From Steroidobacteraceae bacterium (GTDB lineage Bacteria; Pseudomonadota; Gammaproteobacteria; Steroidobacterales; Steroidobacteraceae): a DNA stretch of 26,604 bases. This document shows, piece after piece, positions 8,937 to 11,206 of the stretch. Under the pieces are notes generated by a model that saw nothing but the letters and a program-made list of their open reading frames with translations, did no database searches and was not told where the DNA came from. The DNA is taken from assembly GCA_044238215.1 (NCBI GenBank), contig JBIIDW010000001.1, positions 1 through 26,604 on the forward strand, written 5' to 3'. The translations under genes and the position numbers were made by a program. How positions within the stretch are numbered: the first letter of the stretch is position 1; each line of letters starts with the position of its first letter.

Positions 8937-11206
<2,270 letters not shown>

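What the first reader, a model, noticed from the sequence alone, without database searches (positions are those of the whole stretch)
9851..9853. Single in-frame amber codon splits priA just before its zinc-binding region
Seen: minus strand GGC CAG GTG CTG GTC TAG ATC AAC CGG CGC GGC TAT = GQVLV*INRRGY. The frame, codon bias and all downstream motifs are intact, so there is no further decay. Established: this is the PriA helicase motif normally reading Q-V-L-(L/V)-(F/Y)-(L/I)-N-R-R-G. A one-base change from TAC (Tyr), TTG or TGG gives TAG. The next ATG (9769) would skip two of the four CxxC motifs, so a natural split gene is unlikely. TAG is an ordinary stop elsewhere in the window (19297-19295, 21286-21288, 25556-25554), which argues against genome-wide recoding. 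Options: sequencing or assembly error, a very recent nonsense allele leaving a 451 aa protein with the fork-binding domains and first helicase lobe, or context-specific readthrough. Helicase-deficient PriA can still load primosomes in E. coli, but loss of the Cys-rich region should be more severe.
Basis: partly seen in the sequence, partly recalled or inferred. Interest (0 to 1): 0.7.

Follow-up and report, generated by a model that had tools for sequence, protein, structure and literature searches.

The report
One-contig stop codon in priA
The stop codon that cuts the replication-restart gene priA in two is really in this sequence, but only this one metagenome-assembled contig has that base; every other copy of the same lake bacterium reads tyrosine, so it is a consensus error or a rare dead-end mutant, not new biology.

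Summary
On the minus strand, a TAG at 9853-9851 interrupts an otherwise perfect priA (NCBIfam PriA equivalog, 938 bits when read through), 12 codons before the first CxxC of the zinc-binding region.

The TAG is private to this contig:
- Eight JGI metagenome contigs from eight samples, 98.9-99.95% identical to the window, all read TAC (Tyr).
- Logan contigs of four lake-water runs (2020-2025) also read TAC, and this base is their only difference from the window.
- One 763-aa protein on record equals the window's PriA at every residue except Tyr at the stop.
- All 20 same-genus relatives have Tyr there.

The genome is a 74%-complete MAG in 555 contigs. TAG ends about 18% of its genes. No CTA-anticodon tRNA was found. 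Nineteen other suspicious same-frame stops are plain gene boundaries.

So the lineage has an ordinary intact priA. The stop is either a base or consensus error (about 0.5) or a rare, transient nonsense allele caught in one sample (about 0.45). Readthrough, recoding or a natural split gene together get under 0.05. Only the source sample's raw reads can separate error from rare allele. Interest is low.

The parts
8933..11206 (-). priA read through the TAG: 757 codons plus the TGA stop. Start is GTG 11206, preceded by AAGGA. Gene callers on sibling contigs used GTG 11224, giving 763 aa.
9851..9853 (-). In-frame TAG replacing an invariant Tyr codon (residue 452 from GTG 11206). The plus-strand base C at 9851 is the only base private to the window in the ~10 kb (3968-14094) where at least three sibling contigs overlap it.
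9854..11206 (-). The part before the stop (451 aa): 3' DNA-binding domain, winged-helix region, linker and helicase lobe 1 (GSGKT, DEEH).
8933..9850 (-). The part after the stop (305 codons plus TGA): rest of helicase lobe 2, Cys-rich region and C-terminal domain. Coding signal is intact (GC3 0.95).
9686..9817 (-). Cys-rich zinc-binding region with four CxxC motifs (CTAC, CADC, CHHC, CPQC).
9767..9769 (-). First in-frame start codon (ATG) after the stop. It lies behind the first two CxxC motifs.
9850..9855 (.). TCTAGA (XbaI site), which exists only with the TAG allele.

Best explanation
The organism, a lake-water gammaproteobacterium probably of the Steroidobacteraceae, has an ordinary intact priA with Tyr at this codon. 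The TAG in the window is a single C-to-G difference at the third codon position, and it exists only in this one contig of a fragmentary metagenome-assembled genome. I take it most likely to be a base-call or consensus error fixed into the contig where read depth was low, in a locally 76% G+C stretch. It is then not a mutation carried by the cells. Shown: the stop is private to this contig, and the lineage's gene is intact and under purifying selection. Inferred: that the private base is an error and not a real rare allele.
For: - Four public lake-water runs from four studies (2020-2025) were laid on the window. Every contig across 9851 reads plus-strand G, which is TAC. Each such contig of 370-667 nt has this base as its only difference from the window.
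- Eight JGI contigs from eight samples, 98.9-99.95% identical to the window over 3.9-17 kb, all read TAC. Position 9851 is the only window-private base in the ~10 kb covered by at least three of them.
- Protein P0005 (763 aa, two contigs) equals the window's PriA at every residue except Tyr at the stop.
- The truncated 457-aa and 278-aa products are on record only from the 26,604-nt contig itself.
- All 20 same-genus relatives have TAC or TAT.
- The nine other variable priA sites among the sibling contigs are six synonymous and three mild replacements. The gene is therefore under purifying selection in this population.
- The genome is a MAG of 555 contigs, 74% complete. The same organism has a Logan depth of only about 4-15 in the four runs.
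- There is no second lesion anywhere in the gene.
Against: - The source sample's reads could not be inspected, so a real allele is not excluded.
- The window is otherwise clean: no private indels and no other private substitution where at least three contigs overlap it.
- A screen of the whole MAG found no other gene-internal stop among the 19 most suspicious sites. The assembly is therefore not visibly error-prone.
- Real singleton SNVs are common among the sibling contigs, about five in 2.7 kb of priA, so a real singleton is not unlikely a priori.
- The site does not fit the Illumina sequence-specific error signature of PMC3141275. There is no GGC within 10 nt upstream on either strand, and the wrong base does not repeat a preceding base.
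Confidence: 0.5

Rival explanations
1. The TAG is a genuine but rare and recent nonsense allele. Some cells in the source sample carried TAC-to-TAG, and the assembler followed their reads. Their PriA would stop after 451 aa, losing helicase lobe 2, the zinc-binding Cys-rich region and the C-terminal domain, which should act as a null or near-null. The allele is a transient deleterious variant that has not spread.
For: - Real singleton SNVs are frequent among near-identical contigs of this population.
- The window shows no other sign of assembly error.
- A very young lesion would show exactly what is seen here: an otherwise identical haplotype (P0005) and no secondary decay.
- E. coli priA-null mutants are viable though sick, so carriers could exist for a while (PMC5778457).
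Against: - The allele is absent from all eight JGI sibling contigs and from all four runs laid.
- The codon is invariant across the genus, and priA is under purifying selection here.
- No PriC or DnaT, and no PriB hit above cut-off, was found in the 74%-complete genome. A null would therefore have no recognisable backup.
- G:C-to-C:G transversions are among the rarer spontaneous changes (my own knowledge, not tested).
Confidence: 0.45
2. The TAG is decoded. Context-specific readthrough, an amber suppressor tRNA or a reassigned UAG yields full-length PriA.
For: The frame and all downstream motifs are intact, but any one-base lesion of recent origin would look the same.
Against: - The stop is not conserved in a single sibling contig or relative.
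- TAG ends 313 of 1,729 high-GC3 frames genome-wide, and three genes in the window.
- None of the 32 tRNAs found has a CTA anticodon.
- The other in-frame TAG candidates tested by Pfam, those with a distant downstream start, are ordinary gene boundaries.
Confidence: 0.03
3. priA is a natural two-piece gene whose halves assemble into a working enzyme.
For: A PriA split in the winged-helix linker can work in E. coli when both segments are made (PMC5778457).
Against: - The break lies in the first strand of helicase lobe 2, not in a linker.
- The next start codon is 28 codons downstream and drops two of the four CxxC motifs.
- No sibling contig or relative is split.
Confidence: 0.01

Closest known systems
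PriA (primosomal protein N') of Klebsiella pneumoniae and Escherichia coli, solved structures 4NL4, 6DGD, 8FAK
   Same: The read-through protein aligns end to end (residues 7-755, E 3.6e-191). It has the same domain order: 3'BD, winged helix, two RecA-like lobes, a Cys-rich region with four CxxC, and a C-terminal domain. The stop falls on the Phe of the QVILFLNRRGF strand that opens helicase lobe 2.
   Different: The window has a longer Ala/Pro/Gly-rich linker before lobe 1, and Tyr instead of Phe at the site in this genus. The window copy alone carries TAG.
E. coli priA-null and Cys-rich-region mutants (priA2::kan; C445A/C448A; C439Y, C445Y), as reviewed in PMC5778457
   Same: If the allele were real, it would remove the Cys-rich region and everything behind it. 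In E. coli, Cys-rich-region variants fail to complement a null or fail to bind PriB, and nulls grow slowly, are sensitive to rich medium and are SOS-induced.
   Different: Those are laboratory alleles with measured phenotypes. Here nothing shows that any cell carries the truncation, and no PriB hit above cut-off, PriC or DnaT was found in this genome.
Single-base consensus differences and singleton variants in metagenome-assembled genomes
   Same: It is one substitution confined to one contig of a fragmentary, low-depth MAG, and independent assemblies of the same population contradict it.
   Different: It does not carry the published Illumina GGC/inverted-repeat error signature. The rest of the MAG shows no further broken genes in my screen.

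Membership tests
PriA replication-restart helicase (NF004067 / TIGR00595) | Full-length match to the curated equivalog model above its cut-off | tested here: met
   Read through the TAG: NF004067 scores 937.8 bits (cut-off 763) and TIGR00595 scores 576.5 bits (cut-off 230).
PriA replication-restart helicase (NF004067 / TIGR00595) | Domain set: 3'BD, SF2 helicase lobes with Walker A and DExH, Cys-rich region with four CxxC, and PriA C-terminal domain | tested here: met
   Pfam finds PF17764, PF00270, PF18319, PF00271 and PF18074. GSGKT, DEEH and four CxxC are visible.
PriA replication-restart helicase (NF004067 / TIGR00595) | One uninterrupted reading frame | tested here: not met
   The window has TAG at 9853-9851. 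The feature is met in all eight near-identical sibling contigs and all 20 relatives.
Programmed stop-codon readthrough or UAG reassignment | The in-frame stop is conserved in relatives or sibling genomes | tested here: not met
   TAC or TAT is found in 20 relatives, eight sibling contigs and four runs.
Programmed stop-codon readthrough or UAG reassignment | TAG is avoided as a terminator, or a tRNA with anticodon CTA is present | tested here: not met
   TAG ends 313 of 1,729 high-GC3 frames. None of the 32 tRNAs has a CTA anticodon, though the genome is 74% complete, so the tRNA set is incomplete.
Natural split gene | The second half has its own start codon that preserves the domain, and the split recurs in relatives | tested here: not met
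   The first start is ATG 9769, behind two CxxC motifs. No relative is split.
Sequencing or assembly error | Reads of the source sample do not support the assembled base | not testable with these tools
   The source sample is not identified, and the one read-laying run went to four other runs, which hold contigs only.
Illumina sequence-specific error (Nakamura et al. 2011, PMC3141275) | GGC within 10 nt upstream in the read direction, or a long inverted repeat nearby; the miscalled base repeats one of the preceding bases | tested here: not met
   The nearest GGC on the coding strand is 15 nt upstream of the changed base, and there is none on the other strand. The only inverted repeat is CCAG/CTGG with 4-nt arms. 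The preceding bases are T and A on either strand, not the miscalled G (coding strand) or C (plus strand).

The most novel reading that the evidence does not exclude
The TAG is genuine and dominates the source sample. That would mean a clone of a free-living lake bacterium persists with PriA cut off before its zinc-binding region, in a genome where no PriC, DnaT or PriB hit above cut-off was found. It would then have to rely on low-level UAG readthrough or on an unknown PriA-independent restart route.
Probability: 0.05. Interest if true: 0.4.

Novelty: not a real feature. Interest (0 to 1): 0.07.

Why it matters
Mostly as a data-quality point. Annotation pipelines will call priA a pseudogene, or two genes, in this species-representative MAG, and anyone counting gene loss would wrongly score this lineage as lacking a working replication-restart helicase.

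The case also shows that a clean, single, in-frame stop in a core gene of a low-depth MAG can be settled quickly by comparing sibling contigs from the same habitat.

If the allele were real, it would be an ordinary short-lived deleterious variant. It would become interesting only if it were shown to persist at high frequency.

Tried and rejected
- **Search for the TAG allele in public runs.** I searched with the 61 nt centred on the site (four sampled words). None was listed.
- **Exact look-up of the contig that encodes the 457-aa truncated product.** It is not on record.
- **Pattern scans with N at the variable base.** The metagenome contigs and genome-contig scans each returned one more distant relative, both with TAC. 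L022 has no long nucleotide match to the window. L023 is a Steroidobacteraceae MAG with 79% nucleotide identity. Neither is a sibling of the window strain.
- **Illumina GGC/inverted-repeat error signature.** It is not met at this site, so I do not use it to argue for an error.
- **Genome-wide screen for other gene-internal stops.**
  - 94 stops have high-GC3 coding signal for at least 100 codons on both sides in the same frame.
  - I tested with Pfam the 19 whose next start codon is at least 12 codons away. All are plain gene boundaries or have no hit.
  - The screen is partial. The 73 remaining sites with a nearby start were not tested, and genes shorter than 100 codons on one side are missed.
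- **Suppressor tRNA.** None was found among 32 tRNAs. tRNA-Tyr itself is missing from this 74%-complete assembly, so the set is incomplete.
- **PriC (PF07445) and DnaT (PF17948).** Neither was found.
- **PriB (TIGR04418).** Only a 24.6-bit hit under the 72-bit cut-off. Absence is not shown in an incomplete genome.
- **Second priA.** None was found. The only other hit is a weak helicase-core match in a 928-aa frame.
- **Earlier notes of this scan.** None concerns this stop.
- It failed on a coordinate slip and was repeated.

Full report
**What is there**

On the minus strand the window reads GGC CAG GTG CTG GTC TAG ATC AAC CGG CGC GGC TAT, with TAG at 9853-9851. Read through, the frame from 11287 to 8933 gives one continuous protein. 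That protein matches the curated PriA equivalog NF004067 at 937.8 bits (cut-off 763) and TIGR00595 at 576.5 bits.

It carries the full PriA domain set: 3' DNA-binding domain, DEAD/ResIII helicase lobe, PriA zinc ribbon, Helicase_C and PriA C-terminal domain. It aligns end to end with the solved Klebsiella and E. coli PriA structures (4NL4, 6DGD, 8FAK; E 3.6e-191). The stop sits on the Phe of the QVILFLNRRGF strand that opens helicase lobe 2.

The true start is not 11287. The closest relative has a TGA in that upstream frame, and both genomes share GTG codons at 11224 and 11206, the latter behind AAGGA.

- The next in-frame start is ATG 9769, after the CTAC and CADC motifs.
- TCTAGA lies at 9850-9855.
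- The three named TAGs end real coding frames.

The gene sits between two EamA transporter genes upstream and argS 57 nt downstream, all on the minus strand.

**Where the window comes from**

The window is contig C553 of a genome of 2.77 Mb in 555 contigs, 74% complete, so it is a fragmentary metagenome-assembled genome. A 36-nt pattern scan hit a Steroidobacteraceae MAG at 79% nucleotide identity, which suggests the family. Twenty public lake-water metagenome runs hold most of the priA stretch.

**Relatives**

PriA was found in 23 of 24 same-genus genomes and in all 16 other families sampled. None has an internal stop. The one TGA reported, in the 90%-identical G009, lies upstream of the real start. 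In all 20 loci fetched the codon is Tyr, TAC in 16 and TAT in 4. The stop therefore arose from TAC by one C-to-G change at the third position.

**The same population**

This is the decisive part.

- *Public runs.* I laid Logan contigs of four runs from four studies and four years (2020, 2023, 2024, 2025) on 8700-11400.
  - At 9851 every contig in every run reads plus-strand G, which gives TAC.
  - No depth at all supports the window's C.
  - The contigs that span the site (370, 667, 577 and 449 nt) differ from the window at that one base only.
- *Protein cluster.* The 90% cluster of the window's protein has 11 members.
  - The truncated 457-aa and 278-aa products occur only on the 26,604-nt contig itself.
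  - Four distinct 763-aa and two 687-aa forms come from other JGI contigs.
  - All of these have Tyr at the site. One of them, P0005, is identical to the window's protein at every other residue.
- *Sibling contigs.* I fetched the eight contigs, from eight JGI samples, and aligned them to the window.
  - They are 98.9-99.95% identical over 3.9-17 kb.
  - At 9851 all eight read G.
  - This is the only window-private base in the ~10 kb covered by at least three of them.
  - The JGI samples and the four runs may overlap, so I count at least eight independent samples, not twelve.
- *Selection.* Among these siblings, priA has nine other variable sites: six synonymous and three mild replacements (Gly/Ala49, Thr/Ala87, and Arg/Leu207 in the linker). 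This is the pattern of a gene under purifying selection.

**Recoding, suppression and split gene**

- TAG ends 313 of 1,729 frames with strong coding signal genome-wide.
- ARAGORN finds 32 tRNAs and a tmRNA, and none has anticodon CTA.
- I screened the whole MAG for stops with coding signal on both sides in the same frame and found 94. The 19 whose next start is at least 12 codons away are all ordinary gene boundaries by Pfam. In those, one family ends before the stop and another begins at its first profile position after it. The priA site run alongside shows PriA's own Cys-rich-region and Helicase_C matches after the stop and no new family beginning there.
- The stop is not conserved in any sibling or relative.
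- The second half has no usable start codon.

Readthrough, reassignment and a natural two-piece gene are therefore effectively excluded.

**Error or rare allele**

What remains is a singleton: either an error fixed in the consensus or a real, rare nonsense allele sampled in one metagenome.

For an error:
- The MAG is low-depth and fragmentary.
- The site lies in a 76% G+C stretch.
- The codon is invariant in a gene under selection.
- The allele is absent everywhere else.

For a real allele:
- The contig is otherwise clean.
- No other broken genes turned up in my screen.
- Real singletons are common in this population.
- The site does not fit the published Illumina GGC/inverted-repeat error signature (PMC3141275).

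I put error at about 0.5 and a real rare allele at about 0.45. Without the source reads I cannot do better.

If the allele is real, the product would lack helicase lobe 2, the Cys-rich region and the C-terminal domain. In E. coli, Cys-rich-region variants fail to complement a null or to bind PriB, and priA-null cells are slow-growing and SOS-induced (PMC5778457). No PriC or DnaT, and no PriB hit above cut-off, was found in this incomplete genome. Such cells should be at a disadvantage, which fits the allele's absence from every other sample.

**Verdict**

The lineage's priA is intact, and the stop is not a feature of the organism. It is a data-quality flag for this MAG, or at most a fleeting deleterious variant. 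Novelty class: not a real feature. Interest: low.

Noticed in passing
window 11217-11239 (minus strand), and L003 at about 1545-1570: A perfect DnaA box (TTATCCACA, 11239-11231) faces an inverted near-copy (TGTGGACAA, 11225-11217; one mismatch as reverse complement) across 5 nt, right at the priA start region. The arrangement is conserved in the 90%-identical relative G009. It may mean DnaA regulates priA.
   Followed up: partly
window 10587: An Arg/Leu polymorphism (CGG/CTG) lies in the Ala/Pro-rich linker of PriA. The window and two JGI contigs have Arg; six JGI contigs and all four public runs have Leu. It is a real segregating variant, unlike the TAG.
   Followed up: yes
window 7769-7783 and 8682-8711 (argS), against L050: One sibling contig (JGI sample 3300042543) lacks 15 nt and 30 nt in frame inside argS, giving a 575-aa instead of a 590-aa arginyl-tRNA synthetase.
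   Followed up: no
window 6520-6813, against L048: One sibling contig is about 99.9% identical elsewhere but carries nearly all of its 59 mismatches in this ~300-nt patch, in the SPOR-domain gene downstream of argS. It looks like a short recombination tract from a diverged relative.
   Followed up: no
window 11206-11287: The longest ORF start (GTG 11287) is not the priA start, because the relative G009 has a TGA in that upstream frame. Gene callers on sibling contigs chose GTG 11224 (763 aa), but GTG 11206 has the better ribosome-binding site (AAGGA).
   Followed up: partly
window 1758 and 1778 (rsmB): Two more bases are private to the window, but only two sibling contigs cover them. One gives Val instead of Leu and the other is synonymous. 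They look like ordinary strain variants.
   Followed up: partly
window 10429-10519: Contig depth in the four public runs jumps to 185-868 here, over the Walker A segment (GITGSGKTEVY). At 92% likeness, contigs of many other organisms lie on this conserved motif, so the jump is not a copy-number signal.
   Followed up: no
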